Source: Eledone cirrhosa
Lineage: Eukaryota
Reading direction: 5' to 3'
NCBI GenBank assembly: GCA_964016885.1
Contig: OZ024755.1
Span: 19,592,001 to 19,656,000, forward strand
Length of the DNA stretch: 64,000 nt
Shown: positions 17,481 to 60,502 of the stretch, piece after piece
How positions within the stretch are numbered: the stretch's first letter is position 1
Layout of the letters: each line of letters begins with the position of its first letter
Made by a program: the position numbers and the translations under genes
The notes under the pieces: model-generated
Databases searched by the model: none
The model's input: only the letters and a program-made list of their open reading frames with translations
Told to the model about the DNA's origin: nothing

Positions 17481-17803
17481 CAAAGTACAAAACAATCAAA
17501 TTTATGTTTAATGCATTTAATTCTGACGATCGTTTCTCCCAGACAACTTTCTGGAATCATCGGAGCATACACAATGTTTAAATAAGTAATTACTATCCTA
17601 GTCCTCAGAACATTCATTAAGATACATTACTATTCACTGACACTATCAATAGTAATGTATCTTAATGAATGTTCTGAGGACTCTGATTGTAATTACTTGT
17701 TTAAACATTGTGTATGCTCCGATGATTCCAGACAGTTGTCTGGAAGAAACGATCGTCAGCAATTAAATGCATTAAACAAATTTGATTGTTTTGTGCTTTG
17801 TAT
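17478..17803. repeat. Long imperfect inverted repeat (about 157-bp arms, 13-nt spacer)
   Basis: Arms are 17478-17634 and 17648-17803. It begins at the edge of a (TA)n tract and each arm holds a hammerhead motif. Confidence 0.95.
17715..17761 (+). ncRNA. Type I hammerhead motif with U4C core variant
   Basis: TGCT-CCGATGA-TTCCAGAC-AGTT-GTCTGGAA-GAAA-CGATCG-TC-AGCA. Stem II is a perfect 8 bp and stem III is palindromic. A degenerate mirror copy lies at 17523-17567 (-). Confidence 0.75.
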
Positions 17804-24014: not shown

Positions 24015-24060
24015 ACTGCTATATATATTTCGATTGAAGGCTATGACCTCATCAGGCAGT
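24015..24060 (-). ncRNA. Minimal type I hammerhead motif
   Basis: Minus strand reads ACTGC-CTGATGA-GGTCATAGCCTTCAATC-GAAA-TATATA-TA-GCAGT, giving a 5-bp stem I and a weak 3-bp stem II. Confidence 0.7.
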
Positions 24061-25376: not shown

Positions 25377-25862
25377 TGTCGCATGGTCGGGCCGTCGGCG
25401 ACTAAACCGGCAACCCCACCAAGTTTACTTGGTGAGGAGGGTGATTTTGGACACCTTGCAAGACAAAAAACAAAACCTGACAAAGGGCATAAGAGTCCAT
25501 GGCCATCCAAAAGTGTGTAAATATGTATATACACATGAACATATGTATGTATATATGTATATACATGGGTGCATGTGTATGTATATGCACGGGGACATAG
25601 AAATAGTCGGGCTGGACACCCGATCGCGCGGTTAAACCACTGGGAGTGAAGGACCCCTAGCCTTTGTCAGGGCATTCTTCTAGGAGAAGGCAACTCAAGA
25701 AACTGGGATAACTCCGATATAAAACCTGCGGCTCAGTAGTTACCGATGGTGTTGATATTTTCTTCTTTTTGGGTTATAGCTCCTGTCGCTCAGAGAGTGG
25801 GATTGGCTCAGTGCACAGTGTTCCTTCACTTTAAAAAATATCTTCACGCACAGGCATTGCAC
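25377..25862 (+). mobile_element. Third copy (5' part) of the RTE-derived family, with an internal microsatellite
   Basis: GGCGACTAAACCGGCAACCCCACCAAG..GGTGAGGAGGGTGA and TCTAGGAGAAGG are shared with the 49882 copy. Confidence 0.75.
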
Positions 25863-25910
25863 GATAGACTTAATTAATAATTATTAATAATGCTATATCG
25901 TGCAATGGCC

Positions 25911-25982
25911 ATATATTTTATCTGATGAGGATGTACTGAAAAAACAGCACTGTACCTCCGAAATATATATAATAAAATATAT
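25911..25982 (+). ncRNA. Type I hammerhead ribozyme motif (PLE/retrozyme-like), intact core
   Basis: ATATATTTTAT-CTGATGA-GGATGTAC..GTACCTCC-GAAA-TATATA-TA-ATAAAATATAT. Stem I is a perfect 11 bp, stem II pairs 7 of 8, and stem III is palindromic. Predicted cleavage is after 25971. Confidence 0.85.
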
Positions 25983-26142
25983 TTTGATTACGTTGAATGT
26001 CTATATTTATTAATATTTTGAATTAATATATATATATATATATATGACACAGGCCATGGAGTAAGAGACAAGACAAAACAATACTTTACAGCAATTATAC
26101 ATACACACACACACACATTATATATATATATATATATATATA

Positions 26143-26320
26143 TCGACAGTCGGTCGACAAGATCCTAGACCTCATTCGCTTAACGAGTGCGATAGAGCTC
26201 GTCAAATCGGACCGAGGAAACAATGTTTCCATTGGTCTTTCCAATTGCTAATACTATCTGTCAGTTGCAAATCCAGACAGAAATATCAACGTGAAATAAA
26301 TTGTGCTAAAGGACATAACA
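26143..26320 (-). mobile_element. SINE family B 3' part
   Basis: GACAAGATCCTAGACCTCATTCGCTT..GGAAACAATGTTTCCATTGG. Confidence 0.8.
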
Positions 26321-27998
26321 GGCCTTCACTCTACACAGACAGACAGACAGGCAGACAGAGGTATCAGTCTCTTAATCGATATATAGTTTTTAATGGTTCA
26401 GTTCACTTAATCGTATATTTACAGTTTAGTGAACTGAACCATTGAAAGCTACGAGGAAAGACAATGGATATAATAAAGAAATATAATTCGTTTCCGTAAA
26501 CTGCCAGCACAGTGTCCATATTTCTATCTTGTCATTATTGTGACTTTGGCTAACACAGTCTATTTTCACTGGTTTAATCTGCTTCACTGTATCTGCATGT
26601 GGACACACTGTAAGCTAACAAGATGTTCATTAATTACACAGTGTGGATTTCAAGCATTTTCAAGTTCCTGGAGAAAGGAAATATAGAAAGCCACTTCACT
26701 GCTCAGCCTCGGGCCAGATTTTACAACTGTCTAGATCATCCATTGAATATAGTCTATAGCACTAATTACTAGCTGGTTATAATGCCTGCTAGGTAGCTGC
26801 CAATCGCGCATTAAACTCATCATGACCAGAAACTGGTTAACAAGTAGTTAGTAATTGAAATTCGCCATTAGATACATCTTAACGCTATCTTCAAATAGAC
26901 TTTTCTCCTGTCAGTTTGATATGAACGATTTTATATAGCTGTTTCTATACTGAAACTTGGATCTAACACCCACACACAAAAAATGATTTAGTGAGATTTT
27001 AACTTTAATATAACCAGAGATTTGAATACAATTGCACGTTATTAGTTTGAAATAGAAGTTTTATTTCTCTTCAAAATTCAATAACACATCATTGTTTGAA
27101 AGGGCTACTTTCTCCTATTCCACCTCCCACCATTATCCTACAGATATTTTCCGTATAAGCTTATTATATTTTCTATATGTTTGACTATTTCATTCGAGTG
27201 AAGAGATTGTTATGATGGACATCGATTTGAAGGATGCATCAAAGTTATTAATTTTCTTTAAGTACAGCATTAATAAGCTGGTCTTAAGATGCCAAACTAT
27301 AACACATAAGAGCAGATACTGTTTCTCTTAGCGAACATCTTATAATATAATATTAAATATATTTTGTTCTCTTTTTACATCAAAATAACAATAACAAGAT
27401 TATAAAATACAAGGATACGGAATTTTCGAAGAGTCAAAATATTTCTTTGTTAGTGAGATGCTGTCGTTTGATGAACATTTCCAATTTATTGACTTTTTGG
27501 TATTTGTATGAAGTTCCTAGATAAATACTGTAGCTAAATATATAATTATATCTCCATAACTAGTTATCAAGTAACATATTTTCAAGTAGAACATTGATCT
27601 CGAAAGATTGCCTTTAACTCTCAAAAGTATTTAAATATATATAAGTTACAAGTTGTAACTGCAGTACATAAAGTAAATGACAATCCTGTCTTTTGGTGTT
27701 AAGAAATACTCCTATAAAATATCGGCTATTGTGAAAAGCTTTACTGTATGTAGTTCATGGCATATGATAGCTACACATCGATCTTTACAACATAAAGGAC
27801 TCATACATTTTGTAATTCGAATCTGAAACCTCCTTTAAGCTAATATTTACCTAAAGACAGAGACAAACGTATATATTATTCTTACTATCTCTCTCCCCCA
27901 CCACATCTTTCTATCTTACACTGTCCACTTCCCTCCTCTCACTTAAGCTTATAAGCAATCGCTACTTTCTATAATTCATATATATATATATATATATA

Positions 27999-33039: not shown

Positions 33040-36000
33040 ACCACCACACCACCACCACCACCACCACAACAACAACCACCAGTACACCAACACCACCACC
33101 ACAACAACTACTAGTAACAGCAACACAACCACAACCACCAGTACACCAACACCACCACCACAACAACTACTAGTAACAGCAACACAACCACAACCACCAG
33201 TACACCAACACCACCACCACAACAACTACTAGTAACAGCAACACAACCACAACCACCAGTACACCAACACCACCACCACAACAACTACTAGTAACAGCAA
33301 CACAACCACAACCACCAGTACACCAACACCACCACCACAACAACTACTAGTAACAGCAACACAACCACAACCACCAGTAACACCAACACCACCACCACAA
33401 CAACTACTAGTAACAGCAACACAACCACAACCACCAGTACACCAACACCACCACCACAGCCACTACTAGTAACAGCAACACAACCACAACCACCAGTACA
33501 CCAACACCACCACCACAACAACTACTAGTAACAGCAACACAACCACAACCACCAGTAACACCAACACCACCACCACAACAACTACTAGTAACAGCAACAC
33601 AACCACAACCACCAGTAACACCAACACCACCACCACAACAACTACTAGTAACAGCAACACAACCACAACCACCAGTACACCAACACCACCACCACAACAA
33701 CTACTAGTAACAGCAACACAACCACCACCACCAGTAACACCAACACCACCACCACAACAACTACTAGTAACAGCAACACAACCACAACCACCAGTACACC
33801 AACACCACCACCACAACAACTACTAGTAACAGCAACACAACCACCACCACCAGTAACACCAACACCACCACCACAACAACTACTAGTAACAGCAACACAA
33901 CCACAACCACCAGTACACCAACACCACCACCACAACAACTACTAGTAACAGCAACACAACCACCACCACCAGTAACACCAACACCACCACCACAACAACT
34001 ACTAGTAACAGCAACACAACCACAACCACCAGTACACCAACACCACCACCACAACAACTACTAGTAACAGCAACACCACCACAACCACCAGTACACCAAC
34101 ACCACCACCACAACAACTACTAGTAACAGCAACACAACCACAACCACCAGTACACCAACACCACCACCACAACAACTACTAGTAACAGCAACACAACCAC
34201 CACCACCAGTACACCAACACCACCACCACAACAACTACTAGTAACAGCAACACAACCACAACCACCAGTACACCAACACCACCACCACCACAACAACTAC
34301 TAGTAACAGCAACACAACCACAACCACCAGTACACCAACACCACCACCACCACAACAACTACTAGTAACAGCAACACCACCACAACCACCAGTACACCAA
34401 CACCACCACCACAACAACTACTAGTAACAGCAACACCACCACAACCACCAGTACACCAACACCACCACCACAACAACTACTAGTAACAGCAACACAACCA
34501 CAACCACCAGTACACCAACACCACCACCACAACAACTACTAGTAACAGCAACACAACCACAACCACCAGTACACCAACACCACCACCACCACAACAACTA
34601 CTAGTAACAGCAACACAACCACAACCACCAGTACACCAACACCACCACCACAACAACTACTAGTAACAGCAACACAACCACAACCACCAGTACACCAACA
34701 CCAACACCACAACAACTACTAGTAACAGCAACACAACCACAACCACCAGTACACCAACACCACCACCACAACAACTACTAGTAACAGCAACACAACCACC
34801 ACCACCAGTAACACCAACACCACCACCACAACAACTACTAGTAACAGCAACACAACCACAACCACCAGTACACCAACACCACCACCACAACAACTACTAG
34901 TAACAGCAACACAACCACAACCACCAGTACACCAACACCACCACCACAACAACTACTAGTAACAGCAACACAACCACAACCACCAGTACACCAACACCAC
35001 CACAACAACTACTAGTAACAGCAACACAACCACAACCACCAGTACACCAACACCACCACAACAACTACTAGTAACAGCAACACCACCACAACCACCAGTA
35101 CACCAACACCACCACCACAACAACTACTAGTAACAGCAACACAACCACAACCACCAGTACACCAACACCAACACCACAACAACTACTAGTAACAGCAACA
35201 CAACCACAACCACCAGTACACCAACACCACCACCACAACAACTACTAGTAACAGCAACACAACCACAACCACCAGTACACCAACACCACCACCACAACAA
35301 CTACTAGTAACAGCAACACAACCACAACCACCAGTAACACCAACACCACCACCACAACAACTACTAGTAACAGCAACACAACCACAACCACCAGTAACAC
35401 CAACACCACCACCACAACAACTACTAGTAACAGCAACACAACCACAACCACCAGTACACCAACACCACCACCACAACAACTACTAGTAACAGCAACACAA
35501 CCACAACCACCAGTACACCAACACCACCACCACAACAACTACTAGTAACAGCAACACAACCACAACCACCAGTACACCAACACCACCACCACAACAACTA
35601 CTAGTAACAGCAACACAACCACAACCACCAGTACACCAACACCACCACCACAACAACTACTAGTAACAGCAACACAACCACAACCACCAGTACACCAACA
35701 CCACCACCACAACAACTACTAGTAACAGCAACACAACCACAACCACCAGTACACCAACACCACCACCACAACAACTACTAGTAACAGCAACACAACCACA
35801 ACCACCAGTACACCAACACCACCACCACAACAACTACTAGTAACAGCAACACAACCACAACCACCAGTACACCAACACCACCACCACAACAACTACTAGT
35901 AACAGCAACACAACCACAACCACCAGTACACCAACACCACCACCACAACAACTACTAGTAACAGCAACACAACCACAACCACCAGTACACCAACACCACC

Positions 36001-39000
36001 ACCACAACAACTACTAGTAACAGCAACACAACCACAACCACCAGTACACCAACACCACCACCACAACAACTACTAGTAACAGCAACACAACCACAACCAC
36101 CAGTACACCAACACCACCACCACAACAACTACTAGTAACAGCAACACAACCACAACCACCAGTACACAACACCACCACCACCACAACAACTACTAGTAAC
36201 AGCAACACAACAACAACCACCAGTAACACCAACACCACCACCACAACAACTACTAGTAACAGCAACACAACCACAACCACCAGTACACCAACACCACCAC
36301 CACCACAACAACTACTAGTAACAGCAACACAACAACAACCACCAGTAACACCAACACCACCACCACAACAACTACTAGTAACAGCAACACAACCACAACC
36401 ACCAGTACACCAACACCACCACCACCACAACAACTACTAGTAACAGCAACACAACAACAACCACCAGTAACACCAACACCACCACCACAACAACTACTAG
36501 TAACAGCAACACAACCACAACCACCAGTACACCAACACCACCACCACAACAACTACTAGTAACAGCAACACAACCACAACCACCAGTACACCAACACCAC
36601 CACCACAACAACTACTAGTAACAGCAACACCACCACAACCACCAGTACACCAACACCACCACCACCACAACAACTACTAGTAACAGCAACACAACCACAA
36701 CCACCAGTACACCAACACCACCACCACCACAACAACTACTAGTAACAGCAACACAACCACAACCACCAGTACACCAACACCACCACCACAACAACTACTA
36801 GTAACAGCAACACAACCACAACCACCAGTACACCAACACCACCACCACAACAACTACTAGTAACAGCAACACAACCACAACCACCAGTACACCAACACCA
36901 CCACCACCACAACAACTACTAGTAACAGCAACACAACCACAACCACCAGTACACCAACACCACCACCACAACAACTACTAGTAACAGCAACACAACCACA
37001 ACCACCAGTACACCAACACCACCACCACAACAACTACTAGTAACAGCAACACCACCACAACCACCAGTACACCAACACCACCACCACACAACTACTAGTA
37101 ACAGCAACACAACCACAACCACCAGTACACCAACACCACCACCACACAACTACTAGTAACAGCAACACAACCACAACCACCAGTACACCAACACCACCAC
37201 CACAACAACTACTAGTAACAGCAACACCACCACAACCACCAGTACACCAACACCACCACCACAACAACTACTAGTAACAGCAACACAACCACAACCACCA
37301 GTACACCAACACCACCACCACAACAACTACTAGTAACAGCAACACAACCACAACCACCAGTACACCAACACCACCACCACAACAACTACTAGTAACAGCA
37401 ACACCACCACAACCACCAGTACACCAACACCACCACCACAACAACTACTAGTAACAGCAACACAACCACAACCACCAGTACACCAACACCACCACCACAA
37501 CAACTACTAGTAACAGCAACACAACCACAACCACCAGTACACCAACACCACCACAACAACTACTAGTAACAGCAACACAACCACAACCACCAGTACACCA
37601 ACACCACCACCACAACAACTACTAGTAACAGCAACACAACCACAACCACCAGTACACCACACCACCACACAACAACTACTAGTAACAGCAACACAACCAC
37701 AACCACCAGTACACCAACACCACCACAACACTACTAGTAACAGCAACACAACCACAACCACCAGTACACCAACACCACCACAACAACTACTAGTAACAGC
37801 AACACAACCACAACCACCAGTACACCAACACCACCACCACAACAACTACTAGTAACAGCAACACAACCACAACCACCAGTACACCAACACCACCACCACA
37901 ACAACTACTAGTAACAGCAACACAACCACAACCACCAGTACACCAACACCACCACCACAACAACTACTAGTAACAGCAACACAACCACAACCACCAGTAC
38001 ACCAACACCACCACCACAACAACTACTAGTAACAGCAACACAACCACAACCACCAGTACACCAACACCACCACCACAACAACTACTAGTAACAGCAACAC
38101 AACAACAACCACCAGTACACCAACACCACACCACAACAACTACTAGTAACAGCAACACAACCACAACCACCAGTACACCAACACCACCACCACAACAACT
38201 ACTAGTAACACCACCACAACCACAACCACCAGTACACCACACCACCACCACAACAACTACTAGTAACAGCAACACAACCACAACCACCAGTACACCAACA
38301 CCACCACCACAACAACTACTAGTAACAGCAACACAACCACAACCACCAGTACACCAACACCACCACCACAACAACTACTAGTAACAGCAACACAACCACA
38401 ACCACCAGTACACCAACACCACCACCACAACAACTACTAGTAACAGCAACACAACCACAACCACCAGTACACCAACACCACCACCACAACAACTACTAGT
38501 AACAGCAACACAACCACAACCACCAGTACACCAACACCACCACAACAACTACTAGTAACAGCAACACAACCACAACCACCAGTACACCAACACCACCACC
38601 ACAACAACTACTAGTAACAGCAACACAACCACAACCACCAGTACACACACCACCACCACAACTACTAGTAACAGCAACACAACCACAACCACCAGTACAC
38701 CAACACCACCACCACAACAACTACTAGTAACAGCAACACAACCACAACCACCAGTAACACCAACACCACCACCACGGCCACTAGTAACAGCAACACAACA
38801 CAACCACCAGTACACCAACACCACCACCACAACAACTACTAGTAACAGCAACACAACCACAACCACCAGTAACACCAACACCACCACCACAACAACTACT
38901 AGTAACAGCAACACAACCACAACCACCAGTACACCAACACACCACCACAACTACTAGTAACAGCAACACAACCACAACCACCAGTACACCAACACCACCA

Positions 39001-42000
39001 CCACAACAACTACTAGTAACAGCAACACAACCACAACCACCAGTACACCAACACCACCACCACAACAACTACTAGTAACAGCAACACAACCACAACCACC
39101 AGTACACCAACACCACCACCACAACAACTACTAGTAACAGCAACACAACCACAACCACCAGTACACCAACACCACCACCACAACTACTAGTAACAGCAAC
39201 ACAACCACAACCACCAGTACACAACACCACCACCACAACAACTACTAGTAACAGCAACACAACCACAACCACCAGTACACCAACACCACCACCACAACAA
39301 CTACTAGTAACAGCAACACAACCACAACCACCAGTACACCAACACCACCACCACAACAACTACTAGTAACAGCAACACAACCACAACCACCAGTACACCA
39401 ACACCACCACCACAACAACTACTAGTAACAGCAACACAACCACAACCACCAGTAACACCAACACCACCACCACGGCCACTAGTAACAGCAACACAACCAC
39501 AACCACCAGTAACACCACACCACCACCACAACAACTACTAGTAACAGCAACACAACCACAACCACCAGTAACACCAACACCACCACCACAACAACTACTA
39601 GTAACAGCAACACAACCACAACCACCAGTACACCAACACCACCACCACAACTACTAGTAACAGCAACACAACCACAACCACCAGTACACCAACACCACCA
39701 CCACAACAACTACTAGTAACAGCAACACAACCACAACCACCAGTAACACCAACACCACCACCACGGCCACTAGTAACAGCAACACAACCACAACCACCAG
39801 TACACCAACACCACCACCACAACAACTACTAGTAACAGCAACACAACCACAACCACCAGTAACACCAACACCACCACCACAACAACTACTAGTAACAGCA
39901 ACACAACCACAACCACCAGTACACCAACACCACCACCACAACAACTACTAGTAACAGCAACACAACCACAACCACCAGTACACCAACACCACCACCACAA
40001 CAACTACTAGTAACAGCAACACAACCACAAGTACACCAACACCACCACCACAACAACTACTAGTAACAGCAACACAACCACAACCACCAGTAACACCAAC
40101 ACCACCACCACAACAACTACTAGTAACAGCAACACAACCACAACCACCAGTACACCAACACCACCACCACAACAACTACTAGTAACAGCAACACAACCAC
40201 AACCACCAGTACACCAACACCACCACCACAACAACTACTAGTAACAGCAACACAACCACAACCACCAGTACACCAACACCACAACAACTACTAGTAACAG
40301 CAACACAACCACAACCACCAGTACACCAACACCACCACCACAACAACTACTAGTAACAGCAACACAACCACAACCACCAGTACACCAACACCACCACCAC
40401 AACAACTACTAGTAACAGCAACACAACCACAACCACCAGTAACACCAACACCACCACCACAACAACTACTAGTAACAGCAACACAACCACAACCACCAGT
40501 ACACCAACACCACCACCACAACAACTACTAGTAACAGCAACACAACCACAACCACCAGTACACCAACACCACCACCACAACAACTACTAGTAACAGCAAC
40601 ACAACCACAACCACCAGTACACCACCACCACAACAACTACTAGTAACAGCAACACAACCACAACCACCAGTACACCAACACCACCACCACAACAACTACT
40701 AGTAACAGCAACACAACCACAACCACCAGTACACCAACACCACCACCACAACAACTACTAGTAACAGCAACACAACCACAACCACCAGTACACCAACACC
40801 ACCACAACAACTACTAGTAACAGCAACACAACCACAACCACCAGTACACCAACACCACCACCACAACAACTACTAGTAACAGCAACACAACCACAACCAC
40901 CAGTACACCAACACCACCACCACAACAACTACTAGTAACAGCAACACAACCACAACCACCAGTACACCAACACCACCACAACAACTACTAGTAACAGCAA
41001 CACCACCACAACCACCAGTACACCAACACCACCACCACAACAACTACTAGTAACACCACCACAACCACAACCACCAGTACACCAACACCACCACCACAAC
41101 AACTACTAGTAACAGCAACACAACAACAACCACCAGTACACCAACACCACCACCACAACAACTACTAGTAACACCACCACAACCACAACCACCAGTACAC
41201 CAACACCACCACCACAACAACTACTAGTAACACCACCACAACCACAACCACCAGTACACCAACACCACCACCACAACAACTACTAGTAACACCACCACAA
41301 CCACAACCACCAGTACACCAACACCACCACCACAACAACTACTAGTAACAGCAACACAACAACAACCACCAGTACACCAACACCACCACCACAACAACTA
41401 CTAGTAACAGCAACACAACCACAACCACCAGTACACCAACACCACCACAACAACTACTAGTAACAGCAACACAACCACAACCACCAGTACACCAACACCA
41501 CCACAACAACTACTAGTAACAGCAACACAACAACAACCACCAGTACACCAACACCACCACCACAACAACTACTAGTAACAGCAACACAACCACAACCACC
41601 AGTACACCAACACCACCACCACAACAACTACTAGTAACAGCAACACCACCACAACCACCAGTTCACCAACACCAACACCACAACAACTACTAGTAACAGC
41701 AACACAACCACAACCACCAGTACACCAACACCACCACCACAACAACTACTAGTAACAGCAACACAACCACAACCACCAGTACACCAACACCACCACCACA
41801 ACAACTACTAGTAACAGCAACACAACAACAACCACCAGTACACCAACACCACCACCACCACAACTACTAGTAACAGTAACACCACCACAACCACCAGTAA
41901 CACCAACACCACCACCACAACAACTACTAGTAACAGCAACACAACCACAACCACCAGTACACCAACACCACCACCACAACAACTACTAGTAACAGCAACA

Positions 42001-43270
42001 CAACCACAACCACCAGTACACCAACACCACCACCACAACAACTACTAGTAACAGCAACACAACCACAACCACCAGTACACCAACACCACCACCACAACAA
42101 CTACTAGTAACAGCAACACAACCACAACCACCAGTAACACCAACACCACCACCACAACAACTACTAGTAACAGCAACACAACAACAACCACCAGTACACC
42201 AACACCACCACCACAACAACTACTAGTAACAGCAACACAACCACAACCACCAGTAACACCAACACCACCACCACAGCCACTAGTAACAGCAACACAACCA
42301 CAACCACCAGTAACACCACCACCACCACAACAACTACTAGTAACAGCAACACAACCACCACCACCAGTAACACCAACACCACCACCACAACAACTACTAG
42401 TAACAGCAACACCACCACAACCACCAGTACACCAACACCACCACCACAACAACTACTAGTAACAGCAACACAACCACAACCACCAGTACACCAACACCAC
42501 CACCACAACAACTACTAGTAACAGCAACACAACCACAACCACCAGTAACACCAACACCACCACCACAACAACTACTAGTAACAGCAACACAACCACAACC
42601 ACCAGTACACCAACACCACCACCACAACAACTACTAGTAACAGCAACACAACCACAACCACCAGTACACCAACACCACCACCACAACAACTACTAGTAAC
42701 AGCAACACAACCACAACCACCAGTACACCAACACCACCACCACAACAACTACTAGTAACAGCAACACAACCACCAGTACACCAACACCACCACAACAACA
42801 ACAACTACTAGTAACAGCAACACAACCACAACCACCAGTAACACCAACACCACCACCACAACAACTACTAGTAACAGCAACACAACCACAACCACCAGTA
42901 ACACCAACACCACCACCACCAGTAACACCAACACCACCACCACCAGTAACACCAACACCACCACCACCACCACCAGTAACACCAACACCACCACCACCAG
43001 TAATACCACCACCACCACCACCAGTAACACCAACACCACCACCACCAGTAATACCAACACCACCACCACAACCACCAGTAACACCAACACTACCACCACC
43101 ACCACCACAACAACAACCACCAGTACACCAACACCACCACCACAACAACTACTAGTAACAGCAACACAACCACAACCACCAGTAACACCAACACCACCAC
43201 CACAGCCACTAGTAACACCACCACAACCACAACCACCAGTACACCAACACCAACACCACAGCCTCTAGTA
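33040..43270. repeat. About 10-kb satellite array with a 59/60-bp unit
   Basis: Unit CCAGTA(A)CACCAACACCACCACCACAACAACTACTAGTAACAGCAACACAACCACAACCA, roughly 170 copies. Confidence 0.98.
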
Positions 43271-43900
43271 ACACCACTACAACCACCAGTACACCAACAC
43301 CACCACCACCAGTAATACCACCACCACCACCACCAGTAACACCAACACCACCACCACCAGTAACACCACCACCACCACCACCAGTAACACCACCACCACC
43401 ACCACCAGTAACACCAACACCACCACCACCAGTAATACCACCACCACCACCACCAGTAACACCAACACCACCACCACCAGTAATACCACCACCACCACCA
43501 CCAGTAACACCAACACCACCACCACCACCACCACCACCACCACCAGTAACACCAACACCACCACCACCAGTAATACCACCACCACCACCACCAGTAACAC
43601 CAACACCACCACCACCAGTAATACCAACACCACCACCACCAGTAACACCACTACCACCACCACCACCACCAGTAACACCAACACCACCAGTAACACCAAC
43701 ACCACCACCACCAGTAACACCAACACCACCACCACAACCACCAGTAACACCAACACTACCACCACCACCACCACCACCAGTAACACCAATAACACCAATA
43801 TCACCACCTCCAGCATTACCAACACCTCCAGCAACAGCAGTAACAACAACACGACGCCCACCACCACCACACCACCACTAACAACAGCAACAGCAACAAC
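43271..43900. repeat. (CAC)n-CAGTAA-CACCAA short-period degenerate repeat
   Basis: Variable units of about 21-30 bp on the right of the satellite. Confidence 0.9.
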
Positions 43901-44244
43901 ACTCATAAAGCAACATATTGTTTTGATCAGCTGTCAGATATTTTGTAGATGACTTATAAGAACATTTTTTTGCTCCATCCTCTTCCCTTCTCACCTTGAT
44001 TTCACTTCAGCATCTTAGTAACACTCGACTGTACATACATCAGATATATACTGGGATACTGGGGTAATGGTGCTTCCAGTGATACTGATGCCTGTGTTTC
44101 GATACTTGCAGCTGGTATTGCAAACAACCTCCACTACGTCTACACATAACTATAATCCACTATTACTAAGAAATAAACTGTATATATATATATATATATA
44201 TACAATATTAAATAAATGGAAAACTATATTTATAAAACCATATT

Positions 44245-44310
44245 TATTTCATTATATATATTTCGGGGATATCATATTAACAATATGCTATGCCTTCATC
44301 AGACAAAATA
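44245..44310 (-). ncRNA. Mirror copy of the same hammerhead in the left arm
   Basis: Reverse complement of 44498-44563 (TATTTCAT-TA-TATATA-TTTC...TCATCAG-ACAAAATA). Confidence 0.8.
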
Positions 44311-44497
44311 CAATATAAACAGTTTTATAGATAAATATATTCGACATACCGTAATAAACATCAACTTCATTTGAAGAGGTTTACTCTAGCAGAGTAAACC
44401 TCTTCAAATGTTACTCTGCTAGAGTAAACCTCTTCAAATGAAGTTGATGTTTATTACAGTATGTCGAATATATTTATCTATAAAACTGTTTATATTG

Positions 44498-44563
44498 TAT
44501 TTTGTCTGATGAAGGCATAGCATATTGTTAATATGATATCCCCGAAATATATATAATGAAATA
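44498..44563 (+). ncRNA. Type I hammerhead motif in the right arm of a 197-bp inverted repeat
   Basis: TATTTTGT-CTGATGA-(A)GGCATAGCATATT-GTT-AATATGATATCCC(C)-GAAA-TATATA-TA-ATGAAATA. Stem I is 8 bp with two G-U pairs; stem II pairs 11 of 13. Confidence 0.8.
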
Positions 44564-44691
44564 AATATGGTTTTATAAATATAGTTTTCCATTTATTTAA
44601 TATTGTAAATATACTCCAAATATTTGTCGAGTGCTTTTATATCAGTTATAAATATTTACTAGTTGTAACCCAACAATTTTAAATATAACTT

Positions 44692-44722
<31 letters not shown>

Positions 44723-53512: not shown

Positions 53513-53578
53513 TATTTTATCTGATGAAAGCGCACCATAATTTAATTTGGTGGCCCTTGAAATATGTATAATGAAATA
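53513..53578 (+). ncRNA. Type I hammerhead motif, same family as 44498
   Basis: TATTTTAT-CTGATGA-AAGCGCACCA..TGGTGGCCCTT-GAAA-TATGTA-TA-ATGAAATA. The downstream tail matches 44556-44590, but stem II is a different self-complementary sequence. Confidence 0.8.
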
Positions 53579-60310: not shown

Positions 60311-60502
60311 ATTTTCTATATCCTCATTATACATTTGGGTTCAATGTAATCCTGTTACATAATTCTGAAGATGACACCTGATGAGATCGCCTTGCATCAT
60401 AGCTGGGCCATCGAACCATATATTCACTTGCTATATATAGTGATTTCGCGGAATTAAAATTCTAAAGTAAATTTTCCAGTCTTGCTTTCGGTTGTTATTT
60501 TA

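What the first reader, a model, noticed from the sequence alone, without database searches (positions are those of the whole stretch)
25911..25982. Best-preserved hammerhead: a candidate active ribozyme
The core is intact, stem I is a perfect 11 bp, stem II pairs 7 of 8 with a 15-nt loop, and the cleavage site is UA. Stem II is longer than in the minimal PLE hammerheads as I know them, so a loop II-stem I tertiary contact is possible (inference). If this region is intronic and transcribed on the + strand, it could cut the pre-mRNA.
Basis: partly seen in the sequence, partly recalled or inferred. Interest (0 to 1): 0.75.

Follow-up and report, generated by a model that had tools for sequence, protein, structure and literature searches.

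The report
Penelope retrotransposon hammerhead fragment
This self-cutting RNA motif is real but ordinary: it is the cut-off tail end of a Penelope-type jumping gene with hundreds of near-identical copies in this animal genome, it is predicted to cut only when two copies pair up, and nothing found here points to a role in a host gene.

Summary
The motif is there as described: a type I hammerhead at 25911-25982 (+), predicted to cut after A25971. It is one of at least 481 near-identical copies, and 6,387 sites share its first 20 bases. It is the 3'-end (pLTR) ribozyme of a Hydra-clade Penelope-like retrotransposon: a full-length copy elsewhere carries the same motif (95% identical over 119 bp) on both sides of an RT plus GIY-YIG ORF. 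The window holds only a 119-bp, 5'-truncated piece ending at the family's fixed short 3' end, next to (TA)n. Stem III is 2 bp inside a palindrome (AUAUAUAU) that stays self-complementary across sister subfamilies, the known sign of dimer cleavage. This copy is not well preserved for its family: a rare A>T weakens stem II, the distal part of stem I is lost, and a competing hairpin is predicted to hide the core. A 7-8-bp stem II is already reported for minimal PLE hammerheads. No exon or RNA run could test the intron idea. The scan found Hydra-clade hammerheads before in other pieces of this genome. Ordinary; low interest.

The parts
25911..26029 (+). 5'-truncated 3'-end fragment (119 bp) of a Hydra-clade Penelope-like element, ending at the family's short 3' end (+107 from C3)
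25911..25921 (+). Stem I, 5' strand (11 nt; proximal part only, the family's distal AUCAA strand is missing)
25922..25928 (+). Catalytic core C3-A9 (CUGAUGA)
25929..25959 (+). Stem II and loop II; 7 of 8 contiguous pairs here, 9 of 10 in siblings; C>T at 25932 (mismatch either way) and rare A>T at 25951 (breaks a U-A pair)
25960..25963 (+). Catalytic core G12-A15.1 (GAAA)
25963..25970 (+). Stem III/loop III: palindrome AUAUAUAU, 2 bp as monomer, 8 bp between two molecules
25971..25972 (+). Predicted cleavage site, after A17 (AUA triplet)
   Evidence: position by the hammerhead NUH rule (recalled)
25972..25982 (+). Stem I, 3' strand
25959..25986 (+). Predicted competing 10-bp hairpin that pairs the GAAA core with the stem I 3' strand and the U-run behind it
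26025..26045 (+). (TA)n tract at the 3' end, the family's usual target
25377..25913 (+). Unrelated high-copy repeat fused to the 5' side through a 3-nt overlap (ATA); its last ~24 bp are missing

Best explanation
This is the pLTR hammerhead of a Hydra-clade Penelope-like retrotransposon, left as a 119-bp 5'-truncated insertion, and it likely cuts only weakly, as a dimer and probably with help from the element's protein. Shown: the family, its link to an RT plus GIY-YIG ORF, two fixed 3' ends, (TA)n flanks, frequent inverted arms. Inferred: the element's RT began at the short start site on an element RNA and copied 119 nt; the 5' side was then lost or switched to another repeat at a 3-nt overlap. 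Inferred: in the parent element two motifs pair through the AUAUAUAU palindrome to build stem III and cut after A17, to process tandem transcripts. This lone, slightly decayed copy is most likely inert.
For: Copy number: 481 exact 31-mer matches, 6,387 exact 20-mer matches, reversed-pattern control 0. 14 of 20 RT-bearing loci carry this motif 1.1-2.1 kb behind the endonuclease on the same strand (85-95% identical to the window piece), 4 of 20 also in front of the ORF. L166 shows (TA)n, inverted short arm, pLTR, ORF, 3' UTR, pLTR with tail, (TA)n. ORF motifs fit the Hydra definition. 26 of 30 sampled copies stop at one of two ends, 18 of 30 have an adjacent inverted arm. 113 of 126 motif sequences have a self-complementary stem III word, in three main forms: ATATATAT, ATATGTAT, ATGCGCAT. 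Monomer stem III probability 0.00; two copies co-fold into the 8-bp duplex. Literature: single minimal PLE motifs inactive, dimers weak; protein-assisted cleavage in PAc.
Against: No cleavage or transcription data. Clade placement rests on motifs, not a tree; Pfam gave no hit on three ORF pieces. All ORFs I read are interrupted, and no intact one was sought. The three palindrome forms are about two evolutionary events among related, preselected families. In the co-fold optimum stem II takes a shifted register that uses G8/A9, so even the dimer is not predicted cleanly active. 6 of 20 RT loci had no downstream motif in the 9 kb fetched.
Confidence: 0.88

Rival explanations
1. The family is a long-armed, efficient type I hammerhead: loop II docks on an internal loop of an extended stem I, so it cuts well (as a dimer or even a monomer). 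This would hold for full copies, not for the window copy.
For: Sister subfamilies extend stem I past 8-11 bp with an internal loop and a 4-6-bp distal helix of differing sequence. Span from core to GAAA stays 28-36 nt. Stem II covaries. Such contacts are needed for fast cleavage in other hammerheads.
Against: Loop II and internal-loop sequences differ freely between subfamilies, with no consistent complementarity by eye. In natural context stem I probability is 0.00-0.17 in all 10 copies folded. Reviews describe PLE motifs as usually lacking tertiary contacts.
Confidence: 0.12
2. This insertion acts on a host transcript: it lies in an intron transcribed on + and cuts the pre-mRNA.
For: Core intact; introns are long in such genomes, so an intronic position cannot be excluded. 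Intronic hammerheads are known in amniotes.
Against: No same-family partner in the window or 10-kb flanks beyond diverged sister motifs 18 and 28 kb away. Stem II probability drops from 0.95 to 0.56 through the private change, and stem I is 0.01-0.02 in context. The copy is 97-99% identical to siblings, so there is no sign of separate conservation. 0 of 83 candidate frames passed a Pfam cut-off, a weak test.
Confidence: 0.04
3. It is a monomer of a non-autonomous retrozyme rather than a piece of a coding element.
For: Most copies are short and non-coding; animal retrozymes derive from PLE pLTRs (first two of five parts read).
Against: Upstream sequence runs collinearly into a 3' UTR and ORF in longer copies; 5' ends vary (-661 to +5); no head-to-tail array of a fixed unit was seen in the loci read.
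Confidence: 0.05

Closest known systems
Hydra clade of C-terminal EN+ Penelope-like elements, including Hydra-1_Obim (Craig et al. 2021, PMC8557442; passages, section 11 and supplement parts read)
   Same: Single ORF with RT then GIY-YIG; RW(C/K), DKT, YRDD, CxCX5C, no CCHH, later CxxC and CxH; hammerhead near the 3' end; (TA)n targets; inverted 5'-truncated arm; one-sided tail.
   Different: A different family: about 3.8 kb between the two hammerheads with a 1.1-1.6-kb 3' UTR (published ones mostly under 3 kb; Hydra-1_Obim 2,507 bp); tail about 103 nt (30-40 typical); hammerhead sequence unlike Hydra-1_Obim's, with longer stems I and II and an 8-nt perfect palindrome in stem III.
Minimal and short-stem-III type I hammerheads of metazoan PLEs (Cervera & de la Pena 2014, PMC4209133; parts 1-2 of 4 read)
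   Same: Intact core, G10.1-C11.1, long helix II (7-8 bp), small palindromic helix III, mostly single dispersed copies, opposite-strand pairs 100-700 bp apart.
   Different: No unpaired base between A9 and G10.1; stem I longer (8-11 bp plus a distal helix, against 4-5 bp).
PAc Poseidon element of Anolis (PMC11167929; passages and part 2 of the main text read)
   Same: Two RT start sites give two 3' ends; AT-rich targets; hammerhead in the pLTR.
   Different: Other clade; there the ORF starts inside stem II, here about 260 nt after C3. Protein-assisted cleavage is shown there, only inferred here.

Membership tests
Type I hammerhead ribozyme | Core CUGANGA and GAAA with NUH site, closed by stems I, II, III with open stem I | tested here: met
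   stem III only 2 bp
Type I hammerhead ribozyme | Covariation of the stems among relatives | tested here: met
   9 distinct sequences, 94.5% of cells paired, 9 pairs with two-sided change (shuffles 4.4 +/- 1.3, 0 of 500; slid controls 1-5). Structure written by hand; sequences related.
Type I hammerhead ribozyme | Match to an Rfam hammerhead model | tested here: not met
Type I hammerhead ribozyme | Self-cleavage | not testable with these tools
   needs an in vitro assay
Type I hammerhead ribozyme | Loop II-stem I tertiary contact | tested here: inconclusive
   internal loop present in the family, absent in this copy; no conserved loop sequence
Dimer-type PLE hammerhead | Short, palindromic helix III kept self-complementary | tested here: met
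   (113 of 126)
Penelope-like element | Hammerhead in pLTRs flanking an RT + GIY-YIG ORF | tested here: met
   (14 of 20 downstream, 4 of 20 both sides)
Penelope-like element | 5' truncation, adjacent inverted copy, tail on one end only | tested here: met
   18 short, 8 long, 4 other ends of 30; 18 of 30 with inverted arm
Hydra clade | RWK-like and DKT motifs, CxCX5C linker, no CCHH, CxxC and CxH in the EN | tested here: met
   read by eye in frames of L166, L134, L135 against the definition; RWK appears as RWC
Hydra clade | Insertion into (TA)n | tested here: met
   17 of 30 followed by a TA run within 16 nt; window copy too
Hydra clade | Short length (generally under 3 kb) | tested here: not met
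   3,810 bp between hammerheads in L166; a tendency in the paper, not a strict criterion
Hydra clade | Placement in an RT phylogeny | not tested
   reference proteins were not available as session sequences
Non-LTR retrozyme | Tandem repeats of a non-coding unit, each with a hammerhead | tested here: not met

The most novel reading that the evidence does not exclude
This Hydra-clade lineage uses a long-armed type I hammerhead in which both a palindrome-driven dimer and a distal loop II-stem I contact are needed, while a built-in hairpin keeps the core off until the element's protein binds; hundreds of young copies and sister subfamilies with compensatory changes would make the role of PLE hammerheads directly testable.
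Probability: 0.12. Interest if true: 0.45.

Novelty: new member of a known kind. Interest (0 to 1): 0.15.

Why it matters
As a single locus it matters little: it is one decayed retrotransposon end among hundreds. The family has modest use. What PLE hammerheads do is still open, and here natural palindrome variants (AUAUAUAU, AUAUGUAU, AUGCGCAU) give ready-made compensatory controls for dimer cleavage and for cross-talk between subfamilies.

Tried and rejected
Rfam: no hammerhead hit. Pfam: 0 of 3 element ORF pieces hit; 0 of 83 candidate exon frames from the window and 10-kb flanks passed a cut-off, two sub-threshold hits judged chance; frames under 45 aa, low-GC or repeat-covered were not sent. 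RNA: no RNA holder listed, no evidence either way. Contigs of three runs of one sample laid on 25380-26700 skipped 25961-26156 as repeat, so presence/absence polymorphism could not be read. Hydra-type ORFs in L047 and L035 were first suspected as the parent and rejected as separate insertions. A hotspot of 5' truncation at the start of stem I was not supported (1 of 30 at -11; most at -52 to -72). The competing hairpin is not general: A13/A14 paired downstream with probability 0.84-0.98 in 6 of 10 copies folded and 0.00-0.26 in 4. Lunse et al. on dimer cleavage is not held; seen only as cited in a review. Earlier notes on scrambled Naiad hammerheads do not apply: this motif has the normal strand order. 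Four paper searches showed no description of this family; Repbase/Dfam were not searchable, so it may be annotated there.

Full report
Observation. The sequence at 25911-25982 (+) folds on paper as a type I hammerhead: stem I 11 of 11, core CUGAUGA (25922-25928), stem II 7 of 8 with a 15-nt loop, GAAA (25960-25963), and U16.1-A17 at 25970-25971. A descriptor blind to the stem III sequence finds 1 such motif in the window and a mean of 0.015 in 200 block shuffles. Rfam has no hammerhead match, so the call rests on the core and on covariation.

It is a repeat. The genome (3.0 Gb; animal, octopus-like by inference from its repeats and from earlier notes) holds 6,387 exact matches to a 20-mer spanning the core and 481 to a 31-mer specific for this subfamily, with 0 for the reversed controls. 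The nearest copies are 97-99% identical over 25911-26029. Similarity starts at 25911 and ends at 26029, followed by (TA)n. In 30 copies taken in genome order (two pairs are arms of one insertion), 18 stop at the short end used here (+107 from C3), 8 at a long end (+210) and 4 elsewhere; 18 have an adjacent inverted arm; 17 are followed by a TA run; 5' ends range from -661 to +5. This is the insertion pattern described for Penelope-like elements (PMC8557442), and two RT start sites explain the two ends in PAc (PMC11167929).

The parent element. Walking upstream in a sister subfamily reached an RT plus GIY-YIG frame. An RT piece inverted next to a copy of the window's own subfamily (L085) retrieved 20 loci. 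14 of the 20 carry the motif 1.1-2.1 kb behind the endonuclease on the same strand, 85-95% identical to the window piece, and 4 also carry it in front of the ORF. L166 is complete in layout: (TA)n, inverted short arm, truncated 3' UTR, hammerhead, tail, ORF, 3' UTR, hammerhead, tail, (TA)n; its 3' copy matches the window piece at 113 of 119 positions. Its frames are interrupted and show RWC, DKT, YRDD, CxCX5C, no CCHH, then CxxC and CxH, which fits the Hydra clade definition. It is not Hydra-1_Obim, which is 2,507 bp and has another hammerhead. No tree was built, and Pfam did not recognise the three pieces sent.

How well preserved is this copy. It differs from the family majority at 25932 (C>T, a mismatch either way) and 25951 (A>T). 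Of the first 100 listed 31-mer matches 99 have A and 1 has T. The change cuts stem II from 9 of 10 to 8 of 10 pairs and its predicted probability from about 0.95 to 0.56. 5 of the 30 sampled copies have an intact core, 11-bp stem I and 9 of 10 stem II pairs; the sample was chosen on the 31-mer and so leans to good copies. The perfect 11-bp stem I is one subvariant: 8 of 30 have it, 15 have 6 contiguous pairs. The 5' side is fused, through a shared ATA, to an unrelated high-copy repeat (25377-25913) that lacks its last ~24 bp. A later deletion and an RT template switch both fit; I cannot separate them.

Mechanism. As a monomer stem III has probability 0.00 and costs 2.8 kcal/mol; two copies co-fold into an 8-bp intermolecular duplex, though with stem II in a shifted register. 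Among 126 distinct motif sequences from the window and loci L001-L169, 113 have a self-complementary stem III word: ATATATAT 55, ATATGTAT 46, ATGCGCAT 9, 3 others. The path A-U, G.U, G-C keeps the palindrome, but these are related, preselected families and about two events. Stems covary across 9 distinct sequences. Published work found single minimal PLE motifs inactive and dimers weak (PMC4209133), and the PAc motif cut only with its protein, was not needed for insertion in vitro, and left no read ends at the site. With flanks, the window copy is predicted to pair its GAAA with the stem I 3' strand (stem I probability 0.01-0.02). So the parent element most likely cuts as a weak, assisted dimer, and this lone copy is most likely inert. 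Both steps are inference.

A 7-8-bp helix II is reported for minimal PLE hammerheads, though it is longer than in the published Hydra list (3-7 bp). The family does extend stem I past an internal loop into a distal helix, the kind of site where loop II could dock, but loop sequences vary freely and this copy lost the distal 5' strand. The intron idea could not be tested: no RNA holder was listed and 0 of 83 candidate frames passed a Pfam cut-off.

Earlier notes. I reached the Hydra reading before looking. Notes on other pieces of this genome agree on Hydra-clade hammerheads and two-armed insertions, and gave the lead to Hydra-1_Obim and to twin hairpins behind the two 3' ends. In L166 the stretches behind both ends share a short motif but fold weakly (-3.2 and -7.9 kcal/mol); the window copy ends before the first.

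Verdict. Real motif, known kind, a family I did not find described in four paper searches (repeat libraries not searchable; bioRxiv supplements closed, so tables of the retrozyme preprint were not seen). Interest 0.15.

Noticed in passing
window 44180-44313 (-) and 44495-44700 (+): Back-to-back pair of hammerheads of a sister subfamily, one short arm and one long arm, between (TA)n tracts, with a 30-bp duplication at the joint; stem II pairs poorly.
   Followed up: partly
window 53513-53578 (+): Another sister-subfamily hammerhead with intact core, AUAUGUAU stem III and the extended stem I retained; arguably as intact as the one reported.
   Followed up: partly
window 24015-24060 (-): Hammerhead of an unrelated family with the same AUAUAUAU stem III, 5-bp stem I and a shortened stem II; 1.9 kb from the finding but on the other strand.
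   Followed up: partly
window 60378-60430 (+): CUGAUGA followed by a hairpin and GAAC instead of GAAA; possibly a decayed hammerhead.
   Followed up: no
window 25377-25913 (+): Very high-copy non-coding repeat of at least 560 bp flanked by (ATGT)n/(TA)n, with variable 5' ends and a long hairpin at 25855-25909 near its 3' end; behaves like a retroposed element.
   Followed up: partly
window 33040-43878: About 10 kb tandem array of a 59-bp unit (about 172 copies, 95% matches) with extreme C/A strand skew; period is not a multiple of 3.
   Followed up: no
window 17500-17770: Inverted pair, each arm with two core-like words (CTGACGA and CTGAGG-), possibly another two-armed ribozyme-bearing repeat.
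   Followed up: no
L166:7100-6990 (-): Stretches just behind the two fixed 3' ends share a CTC...GAG(T/C)GCTT motif, matching the twin hairpins of earlier notes; folds are weak.
   Followed up: partly
L047, L035, L062, L065, L069, L102, L161: Pieces of several further Hydra-type ORFs, distinct from the parent family, turned up in random flanks; the clade is abundant in this genome.
   Followed up: no
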